Shown here: piece by piece, positions 16,052 through 63,859 of the stretch | Numbering within the stretch: the first letter of the stretch is position 1 | Layout: each line of letters opens with the position of its first letter | Assembly (NCBI GenBank): GCA_000004985.1 | Contig: GG738882.1 | Strand: one strand, 5' to 3' | Source of the DNA: Naegleria gruberi | Taxonomy: Eukaryota | Length of the DNA stretch: 64,000 nt | Program-made: the position numbers and the translations under genes | The notes under the pieces: model-generated | The model's database searches: none | What the model was told of the DNA's origin: nothing | The model's input: the letters and a program-made list of their open reading frames with translations, nothing else

Positions 16052-17615
16052 ATGCGTTCAGTGTTATTCTTTGTATTGTTGCTTGTCTTACTGACAAGTT
16101 GCTGTGTCAAAAGCCAAATTTAATTGTCAAGCCATCAAGAACTACTGGAACAGCTCCTTTAGCAGTACATTTTGATGCTACTGCTACTACACTCCCAGGA
16201 AAAGATGCATTCCGTGATATTACCTATTCTTTTGATTTTGGAGATGTCAACTCTGGCAATTGGTCAACTGACGGAAAATCAAAGAATACTCAAATAGGTG
16301 GACCAATTTCTGCTCATGTTTATGATAATGCTGGAACATACACTGTTTGGATTCGTGCCAGTGCTCCTGGTTACTACTATTCAGATGTCACTTTAACCAA
16401 TCCAAATGTTGACTTTGCTGGAAACAAAACTGTTTGTGTTTCAACGAGTGGAAATTATAATTCATGTCCGAGTGGTGCTCTCAAACAGAAAACCATCCCA
16501 ACAGGAACTGAATGGTCAGGTAAAAGATGGTTATTAAGAAGAGGCGAAACTTTTGACGAAATTGCAATTCAGGATGGAAATTCGAATGTGCAAGTGGGTG
16601 CATTTGGATCAGCAAGTCAACTGCCAATCGTTGCCAAAGTTGGAGTTGGATCTTGGCGTCCAGATACTCCTGATTTTCCAGTTGACATTTCAATTATGGA
16701 CCTGTCAATTCCAGGTGGCGTTTTAGATTCTCTTGGCAAGAGACATTTATTCTATAGAAATAACATTACTGGATGTGATAATGCACTTTGTGTTGGTTTT
16801 GGCGAACCTTATTATTGGATATTTGATGATCCTTATAGAAGAATTCCAATTTCTTCATTTTACAATCCTCAAGAATTCTTCTACGTCGACAATATTGCAG
16901 TTGGTAATACAGCAACTACACAGGGAAATTTCTTTGGGTCCATTGCTAAATCTGCATTTATGGGAAACTATGCTAAGTATACGAAATTTCACAATATGAG
17001 ATGCACCCAATGTTACAAAACTTTCTTTGGACATAATCATTTTGCTGGGGTTTCAATTGATGGAGGATACCACTCTTTTAAAATGCATTCAGGTGCAAGG
17101 CTACCTTGTCAACTAATGGTTGGATTACTCAATTTAATGTCATTTCGAATAACATTTTGGGAAGCTTGCAGGATAACAATGTTTGGGGTTCAATGATTTC
17201 TCCTCAAAATGGTGCATATCCAGAACGTATTACTGATATAATTATTGAAAATAATCAATATATTATTCATAGAAATGATCAATATGATTTGATCTTGTCA
17301 GCAAGAAATGTCACTTACAGAGCTAATACTAGAAGTGATGGTAAATCAGCTGCTGTCATGTTTGGACCTCATGGAGAAGCTCTTCCAGCTTATTGGTTAG
17401 GACCGTATTACACTACTAATACTCCTGTTGTAAATGTGACAGCTTCAACTTCAAATGTCACTCCTATTAAAAGTAGTCAACCAACAGCAGCGAATAGTGG
17501 TGTGAAAGGTAGTGGAAGTACTTCAAGTGAAAGAGTTGGAGAATCGAATGGAAATTTTGCTTGTTCCGTAATGTTATTGCTGTTGATAAGTTTAATTTTC
17601 ATTATCCAGTTTTAA
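16052..17615 (+). CDS. secreted PKD-domain / parallel beta-helix protein with GPI-anchor-like C-terminus; reading frame broken twice (frameshifted CDS, possible pseudogene or assembly indels)
   Basis: ATG at 16052 encodes the signal peptide MRSVLFFVLLLVLLTSCC but stops at 16121. The long ORF 16099..17196 runs in another frame and carries a PKD domain (TAPLAVHFDATAT...YSFDFGD). A third frame, 17082..17615, continues the beta-helix-like repeats and ends in the hydrophobic tail SNGNFACSVMLLLLISLIFIIQF. The breaks fall near A-run 16109-16112 and T/A run 17077-17083. Confidence 0.55.
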
Positions 17616-30887: not shown

Positions 30888-33058
30888 CTATTTGGAAATG
30901 ATATTAATATCGGAAAAGTCATTACAAGTTGTCAAGTGGATAAACAATTTCTTTCTGAGGAAATTCATATTGTGACAATAGGTTGGAGTACCTGTGAGAA
31001 AGATGGTGTGACCTCTGCCACAAGCTACATCCTTGATTGGAATATTTCTGAAAAAGTCAACACGTACAGGTCTACACACAAAGCAATTTTGTTGATTTTC
31101 ATCTTCTCTAGTATGATGATACATTCTCTCTTGAACTTCATCTGTTTTTTGAGATTGGATGTATCCTAGTTGGCCATGCTTTCCTTCTCCACCAACATAA
31201 CATTCACCACTTCTTGAAAGGAGAACACAATGATTCCATCCACAAGCAACCTTACATATTGGAATTCCATAGAGTAATTTGAGTGGATAGACAAATCGTT
31301 GAGTCTTGGTATTTCCATTTAAAAGCTGACCATATGCATTCCATCCATTCTTTAGAAAAAACATTGTTTGAAATTTGCAATTATTAATTAATACTTACTG
31401 TATACACTCTTCCATCTGATTATTAATAATTGAGTTTGTCACAATGATTGGAGTAGTATTGATTAAGATTAAAGAAAATTATCATAGAACATACCATAGG
31501 TCAAAAAGACAGAATGGAAATATCCACAAGCAACTGCACAAATCTTTTCATCTTGCAAGGAAGTTATCAAATGAGGAATCAAATGTCTATTGGAAGAATC
31601 TGTTTCTTGTGAAAACAAAGTAGGATCATTTTCAATTTCTTGAATGGAGAGCTGTCCATATTGAGTGTCTCCCATACCAAATGTTTTTCCCTCGGAGGTG
31701 ATTAATATGGAATGCCATGCTCCTGCTGCACAATCAACAATTTCCATACATGTGAATGGAATTCTGTACTTGGAACCAACTTGAATGGGTTTTTCACCAT
31801 TCCTTGTGAATTCCCTTAAAATTCTTGGAGGAGTATTGACAGGAACTTCAAATTCCTTCAATAGAGAAGGTTGATAGATTTTAAATTCATGATCCTGTGT
31901 ATTCAAACTTGCATGACTTTTAGTAACTGTTCCACTGTATTTTAATATTACATTATATGAAATATTAACATTGAAAGTAGTTTACAAAAAAACTTACCAT
32001 TGACCATACGTATTCTTTCCACACGAGGCAACAGTTCCATCACTCATTACAAATATTGAATGATATCCACCACAGCACAGTTTTGCAATACTTGGTGCTG
32101 ATATTGTCTCTTCAAACTCGTCCATGGCCAATTGATTTTTTGAAAGTTCTGCAATTAATTCCCTTCTGTCCATTTCGAAATTCCTGAAATATGTTTGAGG
32201 ATTCAACAAGATTGGTAATGTACTTGAAATGGGAGGTGTTGCTTGTTCTGTTCCCAATTGACCTTCTCTACATTCACCCCAAACATATAAGTTTCCTTTT
32301 ATAGTTAAGGCAATGCTATGATGTCCACCACAACTAATCATTTGCACAGGTTCTTGAATCAAGTTGACTCTAGTAAATTGAGTAACGTTTGAATTTTGTG
32401 ATTGACCTGCTTGATGACTGTAATTTGCTCCACAACTCCACACTTGACCATTATAAGTGAGAAGAACAGTGTGATACCAACCACAGACAATACTTTTTAC
32501 ATTTAATTTCTCATCAGCCAATTGAGGTAATGATTGATTGGATGAGTTGTTCTTATTTGATAATTCTTCGTCAGTATGAAGATGATTGGAAAGAGAATTG
32601 AGAGTTTCTCTGCAGGTGATGAGTGAATTTTCATTGGATTGTTCTTGTGTTTCTAGTTGTGTTTCTTCTCTGGAGAATAGAGTTGAGTGTTGGTGATGAT
32701 TATTAGAAACATTGGATTGATCAAATATTGGAGGTAATTTACAAGGTTCTGCAAACGAATAAAACTGAGGATAATATTGTGCTTGATGAACCGAAACTTT
32801 GGGTGTTCTAACGAGCCCTGTTTGGCCAGAAGTGTAAAGGCCACAAACGAATAATTCATTCGAAAGTGTTGGCGAATCTGATAAACTTGAATCACTACTT
32901 GTTGACGCGGTCGTTAGACTATAACTTTGAATACTCGAAGTCATAGCTATTGAATGTGTTTGTGTTTTTTTAGATAAAGATCCACTTGGTATTGATGATA
33001 TTTTCGTTTTCGTGAAACAATCCGAATTTGGAAAGAGGATTAAATTGGAAGCAATCAT
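30888..33058 (-). CDS. RCC1-repeat (regulator of chromosome condensation-like) protein, 3 exons
   Basis: Exons approx 31998..33058, 31495..31934, 30888..31393. Repeated C.GW.H...L..G.V...G.N..GQLG units (VACGWNHCVLLSRSGECYVGGEGKHGQLG). Confidence 0.7.
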
Positions 33059-33270
33059 ATTTTACTATTGATTCAGAATTGAGCAATTGTTTTGATTTAC
33101 TCAAAGCACATCCAAAAAGATATTTTGTGGAACTATTGAAATAACATTGGAAAATCTCGAGTGAAAATAAGACTCATTTGGTTATTGAGAAAAAGTTACC
33201 TTAATTTGATTAAGACAATAATCTTTTAAACTAATTGCTTTAAACCTTGATGTAATGATAGTAATTACTA

Positions 33271-35725
33271 TTATATTGAACTATTGGAAGAAGAAGAGGA
33301 AGATATGCTGATGGAAATATCCACTGGTGTGACTGGGAAATTATCAGAATCTTCAGTAGGTTCTTCATATTGGAGCATGAATCTAACAAATGTGTCCTTC
33401 AAGATCATATTGGTTACAACCTTTTGAAGATCATCCAGCAAGTCAACTTGGCCAAAACCTTCGATAATTCTTTTAACTATGACTTCTCGTTCCTGCTTTG
33501 AAATATTCAAAGGGGTAGGTGAGTCTTCCTTCAAATATTGGGCAATAATTTCATTTTGCTTTTTAGATCTTTCCGAGGTTCTCTTGATATTCTTATACTT
33601 GAGCACATCTTCCAAAAAGTTGAAATTCTCAGCAGAAAATTCACTTTCACAGAATTGCTTAATGAAAAGCTTGTTAAATAATTCAAGAATAACTTACTCT
33701 AAATAATTCCTTTGAACTCTTTTTTGACATTATCTTTTCAAATTCGAAAGATTGAATGGTTTCCTGTTGCTGTTTGATACTGGCCATTAATTCATGTTGC
33801 TCTTTCATATTTCTTGCAACAATTACATAGACTTCAATCATTTCTTCATTCTGAATGATGGTTACTCTGGTAGATGATAATGAAACAGGAAGTTTGTTAC
33901 CAAGGGCTGTAGACAATAATGCATCCTTTCTCGAATTGGTATTATACGAAAGAGATTCAAATAAGCCAAGAAATTGATCCGTCTCAGCAGCAAGATCACT
34001 AACAAGTAAATAATTTGAAATTGCCAAGGTATTCTTCTTGAGAATTTTCGTTTCAAATATAGTATTGAAGGTGGCAATTTCTCCATTTTTACAATCCACA
34101 GTAAAGATGAAATCAGAGATGGCATTCATGATTACTCTTGCATGCTGTTCAGAAAGGGATGTTTTCTCTAGTAACTCTTGAATTCTTTCATTCTCAGATA
34201 CAATGACTGTTTGGGATTCGTCCAATGTTTCCAACATGTTATTAACATCATCAGTCAATAATCCCAGCTCATCCTTACCCATACACTTGACTCTCTTTTT
34301 GAAATTATTGCTAATGGTGATTTCTCTAACTGATTTGGCAAAATTCATCACTCTCTTAATAACAACAACCTCCAAAAAGACCATTATTGCAAATGAGAGC
34401 AGTAAAATCATTGCTGTCATTACTGCCCAAGTAATGATGAAAGAATTGGTTCCCAAAACAAATACTCTTCTTGCAAAGTCTGTTCTAATGATAATACTGT
34501 CATTTCGTGAAATGTCATAATATTTCTGAAATGTTGCCATTCTAGATCCATAAGCATTTCCATCATCTTCAATATCTGCACAATATCTATTCTCGGTTAT
34601 AGGATAAAGATTATTTTGTTGATCAACAAAAAGTGGTTGATTGAGCTGAGCCATATTGTCTTTCCATTTTGTTACTGAACTTGAACCATTGATTAGTGTT
34701 GTTTTCCAATCCCCAACTCTTTCAGTTAAATAAGTATTGATCCATTCGTGATTTTGTTTGAAAATGTATGAGCTGCTCTCTGGAGCACTTTCTCCACTAA
34801 GAGCAATTGCTAACAAATACCTATGTCTCCAATATTCCATATTAAAGAGGGTAATACAGAGTTGAACTCTATTTGCCATATCTTGCTTGTACTCTGCAAG
34901 ATCAAATCTAGCAAACACAATCAGGCCATATGTTTTTGTATTGTAATCATAATTATCCTGTATTGGCATGCCACTCATAAGAATAATATATGAAAGCAGC
35001 TCTGTTTCTGTCATGTTGGCCATTATAGCTTGCTTCTTTTCATATGAGTTCACTAAATTTGGTAAATCTTTAAATGGAGAGAAGAAGCCGACATGTCTTG
35101 TTGAAGGTACATCAACATTCCTCAATAAACGAGCTCCTAGTTCATTTCTCGACAAATCATTGAACTCTTCTGGTAGATTATCCAAACTTATTCCCCTAAA
35201 ACATGCTCTAAAAGCGAGCAAAGTTCCATCCTTCTTATATAATATTGCAAAATTCAATTTGGAAGCCAGTTGATAATTACAATTCAAATAAGTATCCATA
35301 TATTTCTCAGTAAATGATGAGTTTGTAGCCATAACAGCATCAACAGTATCATTAAATGCTCCATATTCGCTAAGCTTTGATGTCAATGACTGAAAATCAT
35401 CAAAATAGGCCCTTGTAGTTCTCTTTGCAGCTTCTACAGAATAAGTCTGCTCAACCGAATTAAACGAAAGTAAAAAGGCAGTCACCAACACAGCCAAACA
35501 AATAGCCATCAATAACAGAAATAACACTCCAAGCACTGTCATTGTTTTAAATCTAATACTACTCAATAAAACAACATCTCTCCTATTGGATTTTAAATTC
35601 AAAGTAGATGGTGGTCTCAACTTGACAATTCGAGGACCTGTTTCCTTAGATCGTTTCATATGATATTCTCTGTAGGCTTTGTCATCTTGCCAGGGAGACT
35701 CTGAAGGAGATTGTGATTGATACAT
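33271..35725 (-). CDS. receptor-like RGS protein: TM - large extracytoplasmic domain - TM - HAMP - PAS-like - RGS; 2 exons with a 40-nt intron inside the RGS box
   Basis: Exons 33698..35725 and 33271..33657. TM1 TVLGVLFLLLMAICLAVLVTAFLL, TM2 FIITWAVMTAMILLLSFAIMVFLEVVVI. HAMP match RVMNFAKSVREITISNNFKKRVKCMGKDELGLLTDDVNNMLETL. RGS box SFEFEKIMSKKSSKELFR|QFCESEFSAENFNFLEDVLKYK. Confidence 0.7.
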
Positions 35726-42409: not shown

Positions 42410-43156
<747 letters not shown>

Positions 43157-43353: not shown

Positions 43354-43545
43354 ATAGAAAGCAAAAATTTCAATCACCAATGAAATAGCCTTAATTCCTC
43401 TATATAGAGGTACTAACTCTCGTGTCATTAAAAATGAAATAATTTAAAATGACAGGGGGCGAGGGGGAATCGAACCCCCGGCCACAGCTTTGGAGGCTGC
43501 GATGTTACCATTACACCACCGCCCCTGTACATTAAATAATGAAAA
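43354..43545. repeat. left arm of an inverted repeat containing tRNA-Trp plus flanks
   Basis: Reverse complement matches 44766..44972. The tRNA is 71/71 identical, as are about 20 bp 5' and 26 bp 3'. A further ~45-bp 3' block is about 85% identical. Confidence 0.7.
43455..43525 (-). tRNA. tRNA-Trp (anticodon CCA)
   Basis: Reverse complement identical to the + copy at 44787..44857. Acceptor GGGGCGG/TCGCCCC, anticodon loop CTCCAAA, T-arm GGGGGTTCGATTCCCCC. Confidence 0.85.
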
Positions 43546-43693
43546 TAAAATTGCTAGTATGATGTAAGCATGACTCACTAGTAGCAAGAAAACTTTATAA
43601 TTTGAAATAACGAGTTTATTAAATTACGGCAGTAATTGAGAATGTTTTGAAGAGTAAGTATTTTTCTTTTGATTAGCATGTGAATTCAATCTT

Positions 43694-44458
43694 TCAATTC
43701 ATTTCTCTTGCTTCCTTTCTAATTATTTCACTTTCATTCTTTAATAATTCTCCTACAAATTCAAGTGAAGATTCATCTTTTTTAACAGCTTGTAAAACTA
43801 TTTCTCTGTCGTTTCTTAAATTTTCAGAAGCATACTGAAGTGCTGATCCATGTTGTTTGACAGCTGTCAAGACAATTTCTCTATCATTTTGAAGTTCTTC
43901 TGAAGCATTCTTAAGAGTATCACCATGTTGTTTTACAGATGTCAATACAATTTCTCTGTCGTTTGTTAATTCTTTTGAAGCAAAGTGAATTTCATATCCA
44001 TGATGTTGGACAGCTGTCAACATTATTTCTCTGTCATTTCTCAATTCCTCAGATGCATATTGAACTGCATATCCATCCCGTCTTATAGCTGTCAAGATAA
44101 TCTCTCTATCATTTCTCAATGCATGATCAGTGACAAATTTAAGTGCATGAGCATGTGATTTGACAGCATGTAGAACTATCTCTCTATCACTTTTAAACTG
44201 TTCAGGAAGAAATTTGAGTGAAAGTCCTTCGTTCTTGACAATTGCCAATGCTACTTCTCTATCGTTACGTAATTCCTCAGAGGCACTTTCAAGTACTCTA
44301 TATCCGCAGACTTCAGCAATCCTTTTGACAACTGGCTTGTAGTTCCATAATTTTAACCTATCGGCAGTCTCTACCAATTGCTCCTCGTCATCACATTGTA
44401 AAAGATTTTGAATTATATCATCGTTGGTGGTGTCAATTTCTGTCTCTTGTCTATTCAT
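43694..44458 (-). CDS. DUF4116-like tandem-repeat protein (about 8 x 24-aa LRNDREIVLTAVKQHG.ALQYASEE units)
   Basis: 254-aa ATG ORF dominated by repeats such as ASEELRNDREIMLTAVQHHGYEIHFASKELTNDREIVLTSVKQHG. The pattern matches my recollection of the Pfam DUF4116 repeat. Sits between the two inverted tRNA-Trp genes. Confidence 0.6.
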   Translation of the reverse strand: MNRQETEIDTTNDDIIQNLLQCDDEEQLVETADRLKLWNYKPVVKRIAEVCGYRVLESASEELRNDREVALAIVKNEGLSLKFLPEQFKSDREIVLHAVKSHAHALKFVTDHALRNDREIILTAIRRDGYAVQYASEELRNDREIMLTAVQHHGYEIHFASKELTNDREIVLTSVKQHGDTLKNASEELQNDREIVLTAVKQHGSALQYASENLRNDREIVLQAVKKDESSLEFVGELLKNESEIIRKEAREMN

Positions 44459-44765
44459 TTTTTTTTTAATTACTAATACTAAGCAACAACTCGATTTTAA
44501 GAGTTTAAATCGAAAGAGTTTGCAGAGTTTCGAATTGTTAGAGTAGAATTTCTAAAGACAGACATGGGTATTCGTGGTGAAATTGATAATGTTAAATCTT
44601 TACACACGATGTTACTATTTTAATCCGCGGCTAAATGGATAAGAGGTAACAAGGTAAGGATAAGAACATAAGATGTAACCTTGTGATTTTTTATTGGTGA
44701 TTGTTGGAAAAATCCAATTTACAATAACGAATATAATTACCAAAAGGTAGCTCTACCCATTGTAG

Positions 44766-44972
44766 TTTTTCATTAATTAATGTACAGGGGCGGTGGTGTA
44801 ATGGTAACATCGCAGCCTCCAAAGCTGTGGCCGGGGGTTCGATTCCCCCTCGCCCCCTGTCATTTTAAATTATTTCATTTTTATTTAAATAATTTTTTTT
44901 AATGACACTGAAATAGTTCATTACTACTCTATTAAGGCAATTTCATTAGTGATTGAATCATTTTGCTTTCTA
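44766..44972. repeat. right arm of the inverted repeat (tRNA-Trp plus flanks)
   Basis: See left arm. Has a 17-bp insertion (TTTAAATAATTTTTTTT) relative to the left arm, then shared AATGACAC and a conserved ATTAAGGC.ATTTCATT.GTGATTGAA block. Confidence 0.7.
44787..44857 (+). tRNA. tRNA-Trp (anticodon CCA)
   Basis: GGGGCGGTGGTGTAATGGTAACATCGCAGCCTCCAAAGCTGTGGCCGGGGGTTCGATTCCCCCTCGCCCCC. Canonical cloverleaf with a 4-nt variable loop. Confidence 0.85.
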
Positions 44973-45003: not shown

Positions 45004-46767
45004 TTATTTCCTTGACAAATTATTTGCTGATTTTCCGTTTTGATTTCCATTATTATTAGCTGCCTTCTTTTCTCTTTCCTTAATAACCTTGTCAATCTTC
45101 ATCTTTCTCTGGAATTGAACACCAAGTTTAAATCTTTGTAAAGTATCCAACATGACAACTGCAATTTCATTTTGTAAAGGTTCAAATAAATCATCAGGAA
45201 GTTGATCATTCATTTTCTTATCTGGATTGGTGACTAATTGATCAGAGTCAACTGAAAAGAGTGTGAATTCTTGTAAAAGAGCTTCAACTTGATCGGCAAA
45301 TCTCTTACTCACATTCACTGAGTTTTTACCATCCAATCTCAAAAAGTCAACCAAAATTTCATTAGCCAATTCAAATCTCTTATTACAAACAATCTTGTAC
45401 TCCTCCTCAGTGACATTCTTAATCTTTTTCTTCTTTTTGAGTGATGACTTGTTATCAGTATCATTAAATGAAAGAGCTGGATTAGTTTGAGTCTTTTTCT
45501 GAGAATTATGAGTGGTGGTACTGTGACTTCCACTGGTAATTGAGTTTTGTTTCGTTTGATTATCACCAGAGGACACACTCGAGATGGCATCAGTGTCATT
45601 TCCAGAAGTGACACTCTTGGCAGCTCCATGATCATCTGTTTCACTTGTAGAGCTAGTGTCTGTAAAGAGAATATCTTGCATTTCCCAAATTTGTCTCGAA
45701 TATTCACGATACAAATTAGTTCTAATCAAAACTTCATAATTTTCCAATGATAATTCTTGTTTACAATGTTGCTTGAATAAATCTCTCAATTTTGGATCAT
45801 TCATCACATCTAAAAGCATGACAGCTTTGGCCTTCTTTAATCTTTCTCTATTCAAAGCTTCCTTATTAAGAGCTGCCACGAATAGGAAAATCATGACAGG
45901 TAGCACAATAATAAATGCAATTATTGTCACTGAAGAAATGATAATTGTATAAATTCCCATCCAATTATCTTCAGTATCTGACAAGTAAGATGACATGTCT
46001 TCAATGATGGCAATCTTTTTTTCAAACATTTCTTTTAAACCTTCATATTCTTCTCCTTCAATAATTGCAATAGCTGTCCCAGTTGAGTTGACATCAATAA
46101 TCTGTTTCTCCAAAATTTTCAGTTTCGAATGAGCATCCATTAGTTCACTAATCACAACATTTTTATCATAATCATGATTAGCAAAATCCTCTACAGGAAT
46201 AATATTAAAAATCTCATTCAGCATACTATCAATCCAATCCTGATGTGCCTCTAAATGATTATCCAAATTATTATTCGAATGAGCACTTTGATTATTCAAA
46301 AGTTTCGTCAAGCCATCACTCGGATGCACAATAAACGAATCCTGATCGAAAATACTCCTATCACTCATATTCAAATAAGCCTTCAAATGCAACCCACTCG
46401 TAATCAACTGCTGAATAACCAACACATCTTTCGTCGTCTTGTATACGAAATTATCCACCTGCGAACGTAATACGAAAGTTTGTGGAAAGATCACTACCAA
46501 CGCAACCAACAATAACACACTCACCACAATCCCACAAACTGACAATAACTTGACCATTGAAATTCGATAGGATTTTTTCTTCTTCATTAGAAAACAACAA
46601 CAACATGAAGGAAGGACGAGATAGAAACCACGACCATTTCGACCACTTTTAGAATTGTCGTTGTTGGTTGTGGAAGAGTTGGCTGTTCCTCCTTGAACAG
46701 TGTGTTTTTCTTTGGGAAGGGAGAGGAATTGGTGAGAGGTGTCAGCTGTTGGTAATTGATTTGACAT
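45004..46767 (-). CDS. 2-TM receptor-like protein with C-terminal split RGS domain
   Basis: TM1 LLSVCGIVVSVLLLVALVVIF, about 180-aa extracytoplasmic segment, TM2 GIYTIIISSVTIIAFIIVLPVMIFLFVAAL. RGS-like halves AVMLLDVMNDPKLRDLFKQHCKQELSLENYEVLI and EEYKIVCNKRFELANEILVDFL...MLDTLQRFK are separated by a Ser/Thr-rich insert. Confidence 0.55.
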   Translation of the reverse strand: MSNQLPTADTSHQFLSLPKEKHTVQGGTANSSTTNNDNSKSGRNGRGFYLVLPSCCCCFLMKKKKSYRISMVKLLSVCGIVVSVLLLVALVVIFPQTFVLRSQVDNFVYKTTKDVLVIQQLITSGLHLKAYLNMSDRSIFDQDSFIVHPSDGLTKLLNNQSAHSNNNLDNHLEAHQDWIDSMLNEIFNIIPVEDFANHDYDKNVVISELMDAHSKLKILEKQIIDVNSTGTAIAIIEGEEYEGLKEMFEKKIAIIEDMSSYLSDTEDNWMGIYTIIISSVTIIAFIIVLPVMIFLFVAALNKEALNRERLKKAKAVMLLDVMNDPKLRDLFKQHCKQELSLENYEVLIRTNLYREYSRQIWEMQDILFTDTSSTSETDDHGAAKSVTSGNDTDAISSVSSGDNQTKQNSITSGSHSTTTHNSQKKTQTNPALSFNDTDNKSSLKKKKKIKNVTEEEYKIVCNKRFELANEILVDFLRLDGKNSVNVSKRFADQVEALLQEFTLFSVDSDQLVTNPDKKMNDQLPDDLFEPLQNEIAVVMLDTLQRFKLGVQFQRKMKIDKVIKEREKKAANNNGNQNGKSANNLSRK

Positions 46768-47222: not shown

Positions 47223-48203
47223 ATGACTTTAAACCACACCACCACCTCATCCTCGTCACACGTATTACCAACAGAAACAACGACCGTTCGCTTCTCATTA
47301 TTAAATAGTAACAGCAAAAAGTTTAACCTCGTTGATTCGAATATTTATAAAAAGAAACCTAACGGTTGTGGATGTGCTTTATGTTCATTCTTTATGAATG
47401 ATTTTCCAGAGAGTTTAAATGCCGAAGATTATGAACCTTCACGTGTTGAGCAAGTAGCAAACATTGTGACACATGGCATTCCATTAATTATACTTTCGTA
47501 TATTTTCTACTTGACCTCACATGTTGTAAATACGAAATTAGAGATGATTTCATCTGTTCTGTATTGTTCGAGTCTTTTCATTCTATTATCCATATCGACA
47601 TTGTATCATGTCATGTGTTTAATTCATGGAAAACAATCAAGTAAGACCTATTGGTTTCGAATAATTGATTATGCAACAATTTACATATTCATTGCTGCAT
47701 CCTATACACCATACTTGCTCGTAGTTGGTATTGGCCATGAAAACTTTTATGGAAAATTGATGGCTGCATTTATTTGGTTATTGGCAATATGTGGCTTGGT
47801 AAAATCATTTTCAGAAGGAAGATTGCTGGCATTTATTAATAATAATGCATTATTTAACTTGATGGGATGGGCAGCTCTACTTGCCATGCCAACCTCAATG
47901 TTTATTCATGTTCCCTTGGAGGCATTCTTGACCTTACTATTTGGAGGAATATTCTTCTCTGGTGGAGTTTATTTTCTAAAAAAGGATGGAGTCATTCCAT
48001 TTGCTCATGCAATTTGGCATATATTGTCTGTGTGTGGATTCTTGATGCATTTCTTTTCAATTTATTATTACATCTTTCAATTGGATGGATTGTTCGTTCC
48101 ACATGGAGTTTACAATTCAAAAATGGCGTATGAGCAAATTATTGAAACACTTACTGGGCAGAGAATGCCATTTGGTCATTTGCGTGTATCCCCAATACAC
48201 TAA
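47223..48203 (+). CDS. PAQR / hemolysin-III family 7-TM membrane protein
   Basis: Motifs ANIVTHGIPL, STLYH, IDYATIYIFIAASYTPY and FAHAIWHILSV fit the HlyIII/adiponectin-receptor family. Confidence 0.8.
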   Translation: MTLNHTTTSSSSHVLPTETTTVRFSLLNSNSKKFNLVDSNIYKKKPNGCGCALCSFFMNDFPESLNAEDYEPSRVEQVANIVTHGIPLIILSYIFYLTSHVVNTKLEMISSVLYCSSLFILLSISTLYHVMCLIHGKQSSKTYWFRIIDYATIYIFIAASYTPYLLVVGIGHENFYGKLMAAFIWLLAICGLVKSFSEGRLLAFINNNALFNLMGWAALLAMPTSMFIHVPLEAFLTLLFGGIFFSGGVYFLKKDGVIPFAHAIWHILSVCGFLMHFFSIYYYIFQLDGLFVPHGVYNSKMAYEQIIETLTGQRMPFGHLRVSPIH

Positions 48204-60207: not shown

Positions 60208-62029
60208 TGTTCTATCATGTAAAAAGTGTTGAATCACAGTTTTTGGTGAAGGAGTTGGTGCACTACTTGATGTATTACTACTATTACTATCAAAACTATT
60301 TGATTTGTTTTCTTGGTGATGATGATTTACTTTCAATTGAAGTACAGGTGATTCATCTATGATATGTATTTCCAATAATTATTGTTGTTATTCATTCAAA
60401 ATACAATATACAATTCGTAACGAGATGATTATAATAAAACACAAATATTCGAAAATGTTCAACAAAATATTCAAAATATTCGAAAAAGACCAAGTTGAAA
60501 CTCTACCTGAAAAGACGTTATTTTCCAATCCCTCTGTTCCATTTGAAGTTGTTGAAGAAGATTTACAACATTCAGAAGCCTTTGTACAATTTTCATTACC
60601 ACTACAACCACCCAACGTTCTTATAACGGAAGAAGATGAAGATTCAACAACAACGACCTCAGAATCACATCGATGATTCTCACTGTGGTGGGTCATTTTT
60701 TTTGCTTTTTTATTCTGTAACGATTCTTTGGTGAGAGAACAAAGTAGGTCGTGGGTTCGTAACGATGGGGAAGCTGTTGTTTTTTTTTATTTTCAATAAA
60801 GTCTAGGTTAGAAAGTGTTGTACGAACTTGTGGACATGTGACAATTTTGAATAGAAACGGGATGGATTGCTGTTACAAGTAATGATGGTTACAAAGGGTT
60901 ATGTTTTGGATTGTTTTGTTTATGAGGATATTGGTTTCTTTTTATTTTGAAGTTAATACTTGTAGGATTGGGTTGTTATTATTATATTATAAAATATTTG
61001 AAGAATTCAAATAATGGATATCGAAGTAAAAAGTCAAAGGAATGAAAATATTTAAGGGTTGAATCAATATTTGAGTAAACAATTCAAAATAATTAGGAAG
61101 TTTCCTGCTTGGTAGTTCTCAACAATTACAATTTAATTTCTCATGTATTGCACTTCCTTCCAAAACAATATTTCTATTATCAAGATATTATTGCACTTCA
61201 TGAAGAGGAATATTTCCCTCTTGTAAAACAGAAAGATATTATTGCTCAATTGATGCTTGAATGCTTTCTGGACAATTGCCCAGTCTAGTGATTGGTCCAG
61301 ACTTTACACAAGTCCAAAAGGAGATTTTAAGGCCGAATAAGTTTCTGTAATACAATTTTATTCTCCATTAAGGCAACTACAAGTTAACAAGAGGCACACC
61401 CATGCAAGAAAAAATCAATTAAATTCTTCGGAGCAAAAACTCCGTCTCCTTTTCGCTGTGTCTTTTCTTCAACTCTCGGAAAGGCATTCGGAAGATTTTA
61501 ACAAAAAAAAGCACGTAAATTCTCTCACCCCAAACTTTAGACAAACTCTCAAACTCTTGTGTAGAGAACAATAACAATAACAATAATCCAAACTACTACA
61601 CTATCCCAATATATATTAATACTATTTTTATGAACAAGTATACGTTTGAACAAGCGAAAATTATCAATTATCAAATCTATTATTATTCTTCTTCTTGTTA
61701 CTACAACAATAATAACAACAATATTCCCTATTAATACGCGCATTCATAAAGCCTGTTTGTTGAAAGAGAGAAAGAACACATTCCCATTACAACCCTCTCC
61801 CCTAATTTATTGTTAAAACTCTCAACAGCATGTTATCAACTATTAGCTCCTCTCCATCCTTGTTAGACAACAACAACAACAACATGTTGTTGCATCCTCA
61901 GTAGCGTTCAATCCTACTCTTGTGGGAAGCATTCCTTCAACACCAAGAACAACATTAGCTTCTACTACCAATCAAGTTGCTCATCCGAATGTTGTTGTCT
62001 CCTCCTCACCATCAATTCATCATCAACCA

Positions 62030-63859
62030 ATGACAAGTCAATCGACGACGAATTATTACCATACCGATCATGCACAGTATCATTCATTCAGTAATGAAGT
62101 TGGAGTTTCGTCTGCCCTTCCTCCCAAGATGCAACAAAAGAAGAGACATAACACAACTGCCTCGACAAGTTCTTCCTCATCCTCCTCTTCTAATGAGCAT
62201 ACCACCATATTGGAAATTGCTAGTGGTGAAGCTTTGTCATCAACAACTAATGGTATAACACCTGCGACTCCAATTCCAGTCCGACAATATCAGCAACCAA
62301 CAATTCAACCAATTCTCACAATGAATTCCAACACCATTCAACCACATCAACAGCAGCAGCAACATGGATACTTTATGAATGGATCCACTCAATCATCATT
62401 TGATAATACTCAAATGCAATCTCATCAAGGACACGTCATGATAATGATGGACGATGATAAGGGAGAAGCAAAGAAGAGAAAGAGAAGAAATCAAGCCAAA
62501 TCAGCTTGTGAGCAATGTAGAAGAGCTCACACTGCCTGTACTGATCAAAAACCTTGTCTCAGATGTGTCAAGTTAGGATTGCAATGTGTTGAAGCTCCTA
62601 AAAAGAAACAAAAACCAAATGGTAAAAGCTCATCTGGCAATAACAGTCCTCCTCCAACAAATGTTAATAATACATACAGTACAGATACATCTCCTTATGG
62701 TAGTGATTTGAGCAGTTTAGCCACCAGAATTCAAAACATTCCCAATATGAATCCAATTGCAAGTGAGCAACATCAACATGAATCAGTAATGAATTCAGCA
62801 GGAAAGAGCTCTTCAAGTTCTTCCTCTTCTGATGGTGACTACTCTTCTGGAACAACCAACAGTCCAACTCAACAAACAACCTCCTATCCTCCTCAAGTTC
62901 CTACCATCCAAACTCCACAACCTTCCTTTGCAATTAATAGATTAACACCTCTCTCAGTTTCTCAATTCCAAACCTTAATTAAGGAAGGCAATGTAGAAAA
63001 GGTGCACCAAGTTTGTGAAATTTCCTATCAACTCATTACTATGAGTGTGGATGAAATCAAGACTATCTATCCAGTGCTCGTTCCAGCTGGACAAGAACAG
63101 TTAACCTTCAATACCAACAGAAATGGGTTCTTATTGGCCTATTTGTATGGTAAATTCAATATTATGAACGCCATGAGAGATATTTTGTGGAAGCAATACA
63201 GATCAGAATACTTTAGTTTCCTTTTCAAGTTAATTTCATTTGATGATGATAAGGCACTCATTAGAATGTATCTTCAAGGTATTCAATATGATTTGAATAC
63301 TGTTGAAAATGAAAAGAGTATTGGTCTGTTGAGTTTCTGTGCCTGTTGTGGAAGAATTGAAATTTTCAAATTGCTCTGTGAAGAATTCCAATGCTCCCTT
63401 TTCCAAGTGAGAAATGAAAAGTATTTACCAATACACTTTGCCTGTAGTTACTCAAATGTAGAAATTGCAGAATACATCCTCCAAAAGTATCCAATCCAAT
63501 TGGATATTCAAGTTAACAATAATAGTTCTCCACTATTGGTTTCAGCAGCATATGGCAGTCTCAAAAGTATCAAATTTTTAATTGATCGAGGAGCCAATGT
63601 AAATTTATGTGACATTGATGGTCTGTATGCTATTCACTATGCCGTCAAGTACAATCACTTTGCTGTTGTCCAATATCTAGCTCAACATAATGCTGATTTT
63701 TCTGTCAAGAATAACTCTGGTCAAACAATATTTGACTTCGCGACAGATTCAGACAAGAAGTTTATGCTAGAACTAATTGTACAAAACAAAAACCTTAATG
63801 ATAGAATTTTATTACAGGAGGATATAATCAAAAACATGAAACCAACATCATGTAAATAA
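62030..63859 (+). CDS. Zn(2)-Cys(6) binuclear cluster (GAL4-type) DNA-binding protein with C-terminal ankyrin repeats
   Basis: ACEQCRRAHTACTDQKPCLRCVKLGLQCV is the Zn2Cys6 motif. C-terminal ankyrin repeats (LLVSAAYGSLKSIKFLIDRGANVNLCDIDGLYAIHYAVKYNHFAVV). The open frame extends 5' to 61847 without an ATG; first in-frame ATG is at 62030. Confidence 0.7.
   Translation: MTSQSTTNYYHTDHAQYHSFSNEVGVSSALPPKMQQKKRHNTTASTSSSSSSSSNEHTTILEIASGEALSSTTNGITPATPIPVRQYQQPTIQPILTMNSNTIQPHQQQQQHGYFMNGSTQSSFDNTQMQSHQGHVMIMMDDDKGEAKKRKRRNQAKSACEQCRRAHTACTDQKPCLRCVKLGLQCVEAPKKKQKPNGKSSSGNNSPPPTNVNNTYSTDTSPYGSDLSSLATRIQNIPNMNPIASEQHQHESVMNSAGKSSSSSSSSDGDYSSGTTNSPTQQTTSYPPQVPTIQTPQPSFAINRLTPLSVSQFQTLIKEGNVEKVHQVCEISYQLITMSVDEIKTIYPVLVPAGQEQLTFNTNRNGFLLAYLYGKFNIMNAMRDILWKQYRSEYFSFLFKLISFDDDKALIRMYLQGIQYDLNTVENEKSIGLLSFCACCGRIEIFKLLCEEFQCSLFQVRNEKYLPIHFACSYSNVEIAEYILQKYPIQLDIQVNNNSSPLLVSAAYGSLKSIKFLIDRGANVNLCDIDGLYAIHYAVKYNHFAVVQYLAQHNADFSVKNNSGQTIFDFATDSDKKFMLELIVQNKNLNDRILLQEDIIKNMKPTSCK

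What the first reader, a model, noticed from the sequence alone, without database searches (positions are those of the whole stretch)
33271..35725. Chemoreceptor-like sensor module (TM-sensor-TM-HAMP-PAS) fused to an RGS domain
The predicted protein has a prokaryote-style topology. After 61 cytoplasmic residues comes a TM helix, then an extracytoplasmic domain of about 330 aa, then a second TM helix. A clear HAMP linker follows (KDELGLLTDDVNNMLETL fits the DEiG.La..fN.M...L consensus), then a PAS-like region. The C-terminus is a eukaryotic RGS box, split by a 40-nt intron. HAMP domains are rare in eukaryotes, and there they normally feed histidine kinases. A HAMP-PAS module driving a G-alpha GAP domain would be a direct ligand-to-G-protein-deactivation receptor, and I do not recognise this as a described architecture. 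A second gene (45004..46767) repeats the 2-TM plus RGS theme without HAMP, which suggests a small family of sensor-RGS receptors.
Basis: partly seen in the sequence, partly recalled or inferred. Interest (0 to 1): 0.75.

Follow-up and report, generated by a model that had tools for sequence, protein, structure and literature searches.

The report
Bacterial-type sensor fused to RGS domain
This Naegleria gruberi gene encodes a membrane receptor built from bacterial-style parts (outside sensor, HAMP and PAS relay modules) that ends in a eukaryotic domain that switches G proteins off, and it belongs to a sizeable, undescribed family of such receptors in these amoebae.

Summary
The window is Naegleria gruberi NEG-M. 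On the minus strand, exon 1 (35725..33698), a 40-nt intron (33697..33658) and exon 2 (33657..33271) encode an 804-aa protein. Its order is: cytoplasmic N-terminus, TM1, a 339-aa extracellular CHASE4 (Cache-superfamily) domain, TM2, HAMP, coiled coil, PAS, RGS.

The RGS domain keeps the Gα-contact residues.

The gene is not a one-off. At least 37 other 50%-identity clusters, from N. gruberi, N. lovaniensis, Willaertia magna and metagenomes, share the same domain order. Sister proteins carry the same sensor on adenylate/guanylate cyclases.

The public model (XP_002674822, 1427 aa) probably wrongly merges this gene with the downstream RCC1 gene.

Most likely function: a ligand-regulated GTPase-activating receptor for Gα. 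This parallels the 7TM-RGS receptors of plants and Naegleria but uses a bacterial two-TM transducer.

The ligand, the GAP activity and the coupling are all inferred. No paper in the searchable library describes the architecture. I rate it a new variant of a known kind.

The parts
33271..35725 (-). Whole gene: CHASE4-HAMP-PAS-RGS receptor, 804 aa, two exons. It corresponds to the first ~800 aa of the public model XP_002674822.1 / D2VMK1 / NAEGRDRAFT_80549.
35543..35725 (-). N-terminal cytoplasmic segment, aa 1-61. It is K/R-rich next to TM1 and is modelled as disordered.
35462..35542 (-). TM helix 1, aa ~62-88. In the model it continues into the extracellular stalk helix.
   Evidence: hydropathy; AF2 helix 57-122
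34445..35461 (-). Extracellular sensor, aa 89-427: CHASE4 / Cache-superfamily fold. It has a stalk helix, a membrane-distal alpha/beta module (125-295) and a membrane-proximal beta module (361-418). C290, R380, C382 and D416 are nearly invariant. It carries five N-glycosylation sequons.
34355..34444 (-). TM helix 2, aa ~428-457.
   Evidence: NCBIfam TM2+HAMP matches to bacterial kinases and DgcN
34196..34354 (-). HAMP domain, aa ~458-510. AS1 runs to aa 472, the connector is 473-485 and AS2 starts at 486. The motif is KDELGLLTDDVNNMLETL.
34121..34195 (-). Signalling-helix / coiled-coil linker, aa ~511-535. It is continuous with HAMP AS2.
   Evidence: AF2 helix 486-535; alignment A2
33806..34120 (-). 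Cytoplasmic PAS domain, aa ~536-640.
33743..33805 (-). Helix C-terminal to PAS (J-alpha-like), aa ~641-661, leading into the RGS domain.
   Evidence: AF2 helix 641-659
33376..33742 (-). RGS domain, aa 662-770, interrupted by the intron. The equivalents of RGS4 residues E87, N88, N128, D163 and R167 are kept (E686, N687, N727, D764, R768).
33658..33697 (-). 40-nt intron (GTAAGT...TTAAG) between codons 676 and 677.
   Evidence: position conserved in homologue L001; RGS score 68.7 against 59.1 bits
33271..33375 (-). Acidic, Ser-rich C-terminal tail (aa 771-804) and TAA stop (33273..33271).
30888..33058 (-). Downstream RCC1-repeat gene. The public model fuses it to the receptor through a 335-nt 'intron' (33281..32947, donor GTTCAA). 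It is most likely a separate gene.
45004..46767 (-). Second, unrelated 2TM-RGS gene (XP_002674826 / D2VMK7, 587 aa). TM helices are at ~74-96 and ~272-300. Its RGS domain is split by a ~95-aa insert. It has no HAMP, PAS or CHASE4.

Best explanation
The gene encodes a single-polypeptide receptor-GAP of Naegleria gruberi, probably dimeric like its bacterial relatives.

Proposed chain of events:
1. An unknown extracellular ligand binds the CHASE4 (Cache-superfamily) ectodomain.
2. The conformational change passes through TM2 into a HAMP domain.
3. It continues along a continuous coiled-coil helix into a cytoplasmic PAS domain and its C-terminal helix.
4. This changes the availability or orientation of the directly attached RGS domain.
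5. The RGS domain accelerates GTP hydrolysis on Gα subunits.

Some Naegleria Gα subunits load GTP spontaneously. A ligand-controlled GAP can therefore act as the receptor step of the pathway, as the 7TM-RGS proteins of plants and Naegleria are thought to.

Shown here: the gene structure, the topology signals, the identity and order of all four domains, conservation of the Gα-contact residues, and the existence of a conserved multigene family.

Inferred: plasma-membrane location, dimerisation, ligand binding, GAP activity, and the direction of regulation (whether ligand switches the GAP on or off).
For: - Domain identities: RGS E 7.5e-19. CHASE4 and HAMP are above Pfam cutoffs in homologues at the same aligned positions. 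PAS is supported by a family profile against PDB (E 2.4e-7).
- RGS competence: it aligns without gaps to RGS2, RGS4 and RGS8. The equivalents of RGS4 E87, N88, N128, D163 and R167 are kept in this protein and are the majority residue at those alignment columns across the family.
- Family: at least 37 other clusters have the same order, owned by N. gruberi, N. lovaniensis and Willaertia magna.
- Selection: comparison with a ~99%-identical public contig shows 10 synonymous and 4 non-synonymous differences.
- Fusion is real: the intron position and the RGS exon are conserved in a 45%-identical homologue, where the RGS ORF is followed by a convergent gene.
- Biological context: some N. fowleri Gα subunits are self-activating, and isolated RGS domains of its 7TM-RGS proteins accelerate Gα GTP hydrolysis (PMC9283941).
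- Precedent for the sensor: CHASE4 domains bind extracellular signals in Pseudomonas PA2072/IsmP, namely iron and ATP (PMC10904736 and PMC12625894).
Against: - There is no transcript or protein evidence for this gene.
- GAP activity and Gα partners are untested.
- The ligand is unknown. The ectodomain shares only ~7-12% identity with solved sensors, so no binding site can be transferred.
The PAS-to-RGS coupling geometry is therefore unmodelled.
- How a HAMP/PAS dimer could regulate a protein-binding domain such as RGS has no worked precedent.
- In this protein alone, the CHASE4 and HAMP scores are below Pfam's cutoffs.
- The public annotation proposes a longer RGS-RCC1 fusion.
Confidence: 0.7

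Rival explanations
1. The public gene model is right. The protein is 1427 aa and continues from the RGS domain into a C-terminal RCC1-like beta-propeller, so the output is RGS plus an RCC1-type GEF or interaction domain.
For: XP_002674822.1 / D2VMK1 is annotated this way. Both ORFs lie on the same strand, about 210 nt apart.
Against: - The joining 'intron' (33281..32947) is 335 nt and has a GTTCAA donor placed 8 nt before an in-frame TAA. The four clear introns in this locus are 40-80 nt with GTAAGT or GTATGT donors.
- The RCC1 ORF has its own ATG codons.
- The closest RCC1 orthologues, in N. lovaniensis (818 aa) and Willaertia magna (538 aa), carry RCC1 domains only.
- In the 45%-identical receptor homologue, the RGS ORF ends and a convergent ABC-transporter gene follows.
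- In the local domain scan most RGS-bearing family members end within ~100 aa of the RGS domain; the paralogue P0014 and P0073 do not (see noticed in passing).
Confidence: 0.08
2. The RGS domain is not a GAP. It acts as a Gα-GTP binding or anchoring module, like the RH domains of GRK2 or RGS-RhoGEFs. The protein would then be a scaffold, or would itself be regulated by Gα, rather than a deactivating receptor.
For: RH domains of GRKs also appear among the weaker PDB sequence hits. Naegleria has an RGS-RhoGEF that binds Gα as an effector (PMC9283941).
Against: The best matches are R4-type GAP-competent RGS proteins (RGS2, 4, 8, 16) over the full domain. The residues that contact the Gα switch regions in RGS4 are kept and are conserved in the family. 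No effector domain follows the RGS domain.
Confidence: 0.12
3. The gene is a decaying remnant of a horizontally acquired bacterial sensor, or an assembly or contamination chimera, and has no function.
For: The sensor, HAMP and PAS parts are of bacterial type. CHASE4 is otherwise almost entirely prokaryotic (PMC4822843).
Against: - The ORF is intact over 804 codons and contains a spliceosomal intron.
- GC content matches the surrounding eukaryotic genes.
- The flanking genes are ordinary Naegleria genes.
- The same locus occurs in independent assemblies.
- Paralogues and orthologues in three species keep all motifs.
- Synonymous differences exceed non-synonymous ones, 10 to 4.
Confidence: 0.03

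Closest known systems
7TM-RGS receptor-GAPs (Arabidopsis AtRGS1; the 28 N. fowleri 7TM-RGS proteins, PMC9283941)
   Same: Both are membrane receptors with a C-terminal cytoplasmic RGS domain. Both are proposed to control the GTP-hydrolysis step of self-activating Gα subunits. The Naegleria 7TM-RGS proteins come from the same genus.
   Different: Those proteins use a seven-helix GPCR-like membrane domain. This protein has two TM helices, an extracellular CHASE4 domain, and a HAMP-PAS relay of bacterial type.
Pseudomonas aeruginosa PA2072 / IsmP, a CHASE4-bearing PAS-GGDEF-EAL receptor (PDB 8wct; PMC10904736, PMC12625894)
   Different: The output there is c-di-GMP turnover (GGDEF-EAL) rather than an RGS domain. 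The Naegleria ectodomain is ~90 aa longer, has eukaryote-style glycosylation sequons and a conserved Cys pair, and shares only ~7% identity in the structural alignment. The known ligands (iron, ATP) cannot be transferred.
Mammalian GPR158 (mGlyR) and GPR179 with RGS7 (papers found; functional details from my own knowledge)
   Same: An extracellular Cache-superfamily domain is linked to an RGS protein.
   Different: There the Cache domain sits on a class C 7TM receptor and the RGS protein is a separate, recruited polypeptide. Here the two are covalently joined through a 2TM-HAMP-PAS transducer. The similarity is functional, not evidence of common descent.
Bacterial transmembrane sensors with periplasmic PDC/Cache domains (DctB, LuxQ, WalK, dCache chemoreceptors such as McpB)
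   Same: The topology is the same: TM1, PDC/Cache sensor, TM2, then in many of them HAMP and PAS. Full-length integrative models of WalK and McpB are the best long Foldseek matches.
   Different: No histidine-kinase (HisKA/HATPase) or MCP-signal domain was reported by Pfam. The output is a eukaryote-type RGS domain.
CHASE4-HAMP adenylate/guanylate cyclases found among the closest relatives (P0051, P0055, P0056, P0059)
   Same: They have the same CHASE4-TM-HAMP sensor module and are detected by direct sequence similarity to this protein. A Cache-bearing bacterial-type adenylate cyclase was the only Cache protein previously noted in Naegleria (PMC4822843).
   Different: The output is a class III cyclase domain instead of PAS-RGS. 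The organisms that encode these four proteins were not determined here.

Membership tests
RGS domain (Pfam PF00615) | Profile match above the curated cutoff over the whole domain | tested here: met
   68.7 bits against a cutoff of 23.9, E 7.5e-19, profile positions 2-109 of 117. Full-length alignments to RGS2, 4 and 8.
RGS domain (Pfam PF00615) | Residues that contact the Gα switch regions (RGS4 E87, N88, N128, D163, R167) | tested here: met
   E686, N687, N727, D764 and R768 are present and are the majority residue at those columns across the family. RGS4 numbering is from my own knowledge.
RGS domain (Pfam PF00615) | GAP activity on a Gα subunit | not testable with these tools
   Needs a GTPase assay.
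HAMP domain (Pfam PF00672) | Profile match above the curated cutoff | tested here: inconclusive
   This protein scores 21.5 bits, below the cutoff of 25. Homologues score 26-43 bits at the same aligned position. NCBIfam TM2+HAMP matches reach E 1e-6 to 1e-8.
HAMP domain (Pfam PF00672) | Position directly after the last TM helix; two amphipathic helices joined by a connector carrying the DExG motif | tested here: met
   In the AF2 model the helix runs to aa 472, a coil spans 473-485 and a helix starts at 486. D485, E486, G488, N495 and L498 are nearly invariant.
HAMP domain (Pfam PF00672) | Parallel four-helix bundle in a dimer | not testable with these tools
   Only a monomer could be modelled.
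CHASE4 domain (Pfam PF05228, Cache clan) | Profile match above the curated cutoff | tested here: inconclusive
   This protein scores 22.6 bits, below the cutoff of 26.2. Homologues and paralogues score 28-53 bits over the same region. 56 of 69 relatives match at E <= 0.01.
CHASE4 domain (Pfam PF05228, Cache clan) | Extracytoplasmic location between two TM helices | tested here: met
   Hydropathy, charge distribution, sequons and a conserved Cys pair. Topology is predicted, not measured.
CHASE4 domain (Pfam PF05228, Cache clan) | Fold of a solved CHASE4 domain | tested here: met
PAS domain | Sequence-profile similarity to PAS domains | tested here: met
   The single protein has no Pfam PAS hit. 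Paralogues give weak PAS_9, PAS_8 and PAS hits. A 34-sequence family profile hits PpsR PAS at E 2.4e-7, 3mjq at 1.9e-5, and RbdA, PAS kinase, CitA PASc and FixL.
PAS domain | PAS fold (antiparallel beta-sheet flanked by helices) | tested here: met
7TM-RGS receptors (AtRGS1 type) | Seven-transmembrane N-terminal domain | tested here: not met
   Only two hydrophobic helices are present. It is a functional analogue, not a member.
Methyl-accepting chemotaxis proteins | Cytoplasmic MCP-signal domain | tested here: not met
   Pfam reported only RGS, CHASE4 and HAMP for this protein at E <= 1, so no MCPsignal match. 'Chemoreceptor-like' applies to the input half only.
Two-component sensor histidine kinases | HisKA and HATPase_c domains | tested here: not met
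   None reported in this protein. NCBIfam kinase models match only the TM2-HAMP segment.

The most novel reading that the evidence does not exclude
Heterolobosean amoebae run a large part of their heterotrimeric G-protein signalling through a lineage-specific family of bacterial-type transmembrane sensors. In this family the CHASE4/Cache, HAMP and PAS modules directly gate an RGS GAP domain. Together with the sister CHASE4-HAMP cyclases, this would form a modular receptor toolkit. It would show that the bacterial HAMP/PAS transmission mechanism can drive a purely eukaryotic protein-binding output. It would also give a second, evolutionarily independent class of receptor-GAPs besides the 7TM-RGS proteins.
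Probability: 0.5. Interest if true: 0.75.

Novelty: new variant of a known kind. Interest (0 to 1): 0.62.

Why it matters
Receptor-GAPs are known so far as 7TM-RGS proteins. They are the proposed way of controlling self-activating Gα subunits in plants and, by recent biochemistry on isolated RGS domains, in Naegleria.

This family would be a second, structurally unrelated receptor chassis with the same output, assembled from prokaryotic signalling parts. Three consequences follow:

- It extends the known outputs of HAMP/PAS transmission to a eukaryotic G-protein regulator.
- It revises the published view that Naegleria has a single Cache-domain protein (PMC4822843).
- It offers an experimentally tractable system. 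Cache-type ectodomains can be screened for ligands, and RGS output can be read with standard GTPase assays. This could identify what these amoebae sense.

The family was seen here in N. lovaniensis. N. fowleri, the pathogenic species of the genus, was not checked.

The work also flags a probable gene-merging error in the reference annotation.

Tried and rejected
- Single-sequence AlphaFold of exon 1 failed (pLDDT 36). Only the run with the family alignment was usable.
- The word-indexed homology search found only two hits with the single protein. It found the same two with the 56-sequence alignment. The family appeared only in the exhaustive representative search. I therefore could not list all named species or count N. 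gruberi paralogues.
- The afdb50 fold library was unavailable.
- The comparative-genomics paper most likely to have catalogued unusual RGS architectures is not held (Anantharaman et al. 2011, Gene 475:63, PMC3396428). An earlier mention of this architecture cannot be excluded.
- Literature searches for RGS combined with HAMP, CHASE4 or Naegleria found nothing relevant.
- A bacterial chemoreceptor or histidine kinase was considered and rejected, because no MCP-signal or kinase domain is present.
- A real RGS-RCC1 fusion was considered and judged unlikely (see rivals).
- Contamination or a pseudogene was considered and rejected.
- I did not try to transfer the iron- or ATP-binding residues of PA2072, because the structural alignment has only ~7% identity.
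Full report
**Source and gene structure**

Exact look-ups of five ORFs in the window return Naegleria gruberi NEG-M proteins from one 381,539-bp scaffold (for example ribonucleotide reductase XP_002674738). GC content is 30-38% throughout.

The finding lies on the minus strand. A 680-codon ORF (35725..33683) runs into a GTAAGT donor after codon 676. Forty nucleotides later, after TTAAG, the frame reopens and continues to a TAA at 33273..33271. The spliced product is 804 aa.

The public model for this locus is XP_002674822.1 / D2VMK1 / NAEGRDRAFT_80549, a 1427-aa 'predicted protein'. It differs from my model in two ways:

- It uses a 28-nt intron with an upstream CAAG acceptor, which adds the residues LFIK.
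- It splices from 8 nt before the stop codon into the next gene, an RCC1-repeat protein.

**Which intron, and is the RCC1 fusion real?**

The 40-nt intron is the better choice for three reasons:

- It gives a gap-free alignment to RGS2, RGS4 and RGS8 across the junction.
- It raises the Pfam RGS score from 59.1 to 68.7 bits.
- A 45%-identical homologue from a metagenome (P0002, locus L001) has a 36-nt GTAAGT...AAAG intron at exactly the same codon boundary (FR|QFC). The alternative upstream AG acceptors I checked in that homologue run into stop codons.

The RCC1 fusion is probably an annotation artefact:

- The joining 'intron' (33281..32947) is 335 nt with a GTTCAA donor. The four clear introns of this locus are 40-80 nt with GTAAGT or GTATGT donors.
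- The RCC1 ORF has its own ATG codons.
- The closest RCC1 orthologues, in N. lovaniensis (818 aa) and Willaertia magna (538 aa), contain RCC1 domains only.
- In L001 the RGS ORF is followed by a convergent ABC-transporter gene.

No transcript data were available, so this rests on comparative and splice-signal evidence.

**Topology**

Hydropathy shows two strong helices, aa ~62-88 and ~428-457. The flanks predicted to be cytoplasmic are K/R-rich: 5 K/R in aa 40-61 and 7 in aa 458-480. Five of the seven N-x-S/T sequons lie in the 339-aa loop. Two loop cysteines (C290, C382), together with R380 and D416, are nearly invariant in the family. This fits an extracellular, possibly disulfide-bonded domain. 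Topology is predicted, not measured.

**Domains**

Pfam on the spliced protein gives RGS at E 7.5e-19. CHASE4 scores 22.6 bits (cutoff 26.2) and HAMP scores 21.5 bits (cutoff 25), both sub-threshold. NCBIfam models of bacterial kinases and DgcN match the TM2-HAMP segment at E 1e-6 to 1e-8.

The sub-threshold calls are rescued by relatives. An exhaustive HMMER search with exon 1 found 1616 proteins at E <= 1e-3 and 22 at E <= 1e-30. Of 69 top hits scanned with Pfam, 56 match CHASE4, 52 match HAMP and 40 match RGS. Individual members score up to 53 bits for CHASE4 and 43 bits for HAMP at the aligned positions.

For the region between HAMP and RGS, a 34-sequence alignment shows the usual PAS pattern. 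Its profile hits solved PAS domains: PpsR at E 2.4e-7, 3mjq at 1.9e-5, and RbdA, PAS kinase, CitA PASc and FixL.

**Structure**

AlphaFold without an alignment failed (pLDDT 36). With a 72-row family alignment it gave pLDDT 85.8 and pTM 0.65. The model shows:

- a long helix from TM1 into an extracellular stalk (aa 57-122);
- a membrane-distal alpha/beta module (125-295);
- helices (299-337);
- a membrane-proximal beta module (361-418);
- one continuous helix through TM2 into HAMP AS1 (420-472);
- a connector (473-485);
- AS2 continuing as a signalling helix (486-535);
- a PAS fold (539-639);
- a C-terminal helix (641-659).

**RGS competence**

In the alignment to RGS4, the residues I know to contact the Gα switch regions (E87, N88, N128, D163, R167) correspond to E686, N687, N727, D764 and R768. 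Each of these is the majority residue at its alignment column across the family.

**The family**

Local domain-by-domain searches show the order ectodomain, TM2-HAMP, PAS, RGS in at least 37 other representatives of 50%-identity clusters. Named owners are:

- N. gruberi paralogues on other scaffolds: D2VY64, D2W2R3, D2W0H3;
- N. lovaniensis XP_044549017, which UniRef calls a 'HAMP domain-containing protein';
- three Willaertia magna proteins.

The rest come from metagenomes. Close relatives carry the same CHASE4-TM-HAMP module on class III cyclase domains (P0051, P0055, P0056, P0059). More distant bacterial relatives carry GAF-GGDEF and similar outputs.

The gene is under constraint. A ~99%-identical public contig differs at 10 synonymous and 4 non-synonymous coding sites.

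**The second gene**

45004..46767 (XP_002674826) has two TM helices and an RGS domain split by a ~95-aa insert. It shows no similarity to the CHASE4, HAMP or PAS parts. It illustrates the general abundance of TM-RGS proteins in Naegleria, not membership of this family. No other RGS domain is present in the window. The neighbouring genes are ordinary eukaryotic genes with no obvious functional link.

**Mechanism**

By analogy with bacterial receptors of identical input architecture, ligand binding to the CHASE4 domain should displace TM2 and switch the HAMP bundle. The change should then propagate through the coiled coil and the PAS dimer to the RGS domain, altering its access to membrane-bound Gα-GTP. 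This is inference.

Published context supports part of it:

- N. fowleri Gα subunits include self-activating ones. The RGS domains of its 7TM-RGS proteins accelerate their GTPase. The genome also holds 79 further RGS proteins that were not examined in detail (PMC9283941).
- RGS fused to at least one TM helix is widespread in eukaryotes (PMC3971589).
- CHASE4 belongs to the Cache clan. Naegleria was previously reported to have a Cache domain in only one protein, an adenylate cyclase (PMC4822843).
- The CHASE4 domain of Pseudomonas PA2072/IsmP senses iron and extracellular ATP.
- Papers on mammalian GPR158/mGlyR and GPR179 mention both a Cache domain and RGS. From my own knowledge, these receptors recruit RGS7-Gβ5, which would be a non-covalent functional parallel. 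I did not read those papers here.

**Novelty**

No paper in the searchable library combines RGS with HAMP or CHASE4 in this sense. The one paper most likely to have listed it (Anantharaman et al. 2011) could not be read.

The sequences are public and carry automatic domain names. The receptor-GAP concept is known. I therefore rate this a new variant of a known kind: a real, conserved and apparently undescribed receptor class, with its function still inferred.

Noticed in passing
window 30888..33281 (minus strand): The reference annotation (XP_002674822.1, 1427 aa) appears to merge two genes, the receptor and an RCC1-repeat protein. It does so through a 335-nt intron with a weak GTTCAA donor placed just before the receptor's stop codon. 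The RCC1 orthologues in N. lovaniensis and Willaertia are stand-alone proteins.
   Followed up: yes
relatives P0051, P0055, P0056, P0059 (not in the window): The same CHASE4-TM-HAMP sensor module is fused to class III adenylate/guanylate cyclase domains in close relatives. This suggests that one sensor chassis was shuffled between RGS and cyclase outputs. The organisms encoding these four proteins were not determined.
   Followed up: partly
locus L003 4687..6543 (JGI metagenome 3300059836): P0082 (618 aa) has CHASE4 and RGS with a shorter, bacterial-length ectodomain (TM2-HAMP at aa ~287-362). It sits on a 7.9-kb contig whose neighbours have no Pfam hits. The organism is unknown, so it is unclear whether the family extends beyond Heterolobosea.
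   Followed up: partly
window 43455..44857: Two tRNA-Trp(CCA) genes in opposite orientation (43455..43525 minus strand, 44787..44857 plus strand) flank a 254-aa protein made of seven DUF4116 repeats (43694..44458, E 7e-110).
   Followed up: partly
window 47223..48203 (plus strand): A haemolysin-III / PAQR-type membrane protein gene lies ~450 nt from the second 2TM-RGS gene (45004..46767) and is transcribed divergently from it. No functional link was tested.
   Followed up: no
window 61922..63859 (plus strand): This ORF combines a fungal-type Zn2Cys6 binuclear cluster domain (E 3.6e-7) with C-terminal ankyrin repeats. That is an unusual pairing outside fungi.
   Followed up: no
window 16099..17196 (plus strand): This ORF has a PKD domain but no ATG start in the listed frame, so it is probably part of a larger spliced gene. 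Its gene structure was not resolved.
   Followed up: no
window 42467..43156 (plus strand): A polyubiquitin gene with three identical ubiquitin repeats.
   Followed up: no
paralogue P0014 (N. gruberi D2VY64, 1166 aa; not in the window): The closest N. gruberi paralogue continues ~325 aa beyond its RGS domain with no recognisable domain. This may be another merged gene model or a real extension.
   Followed up: no
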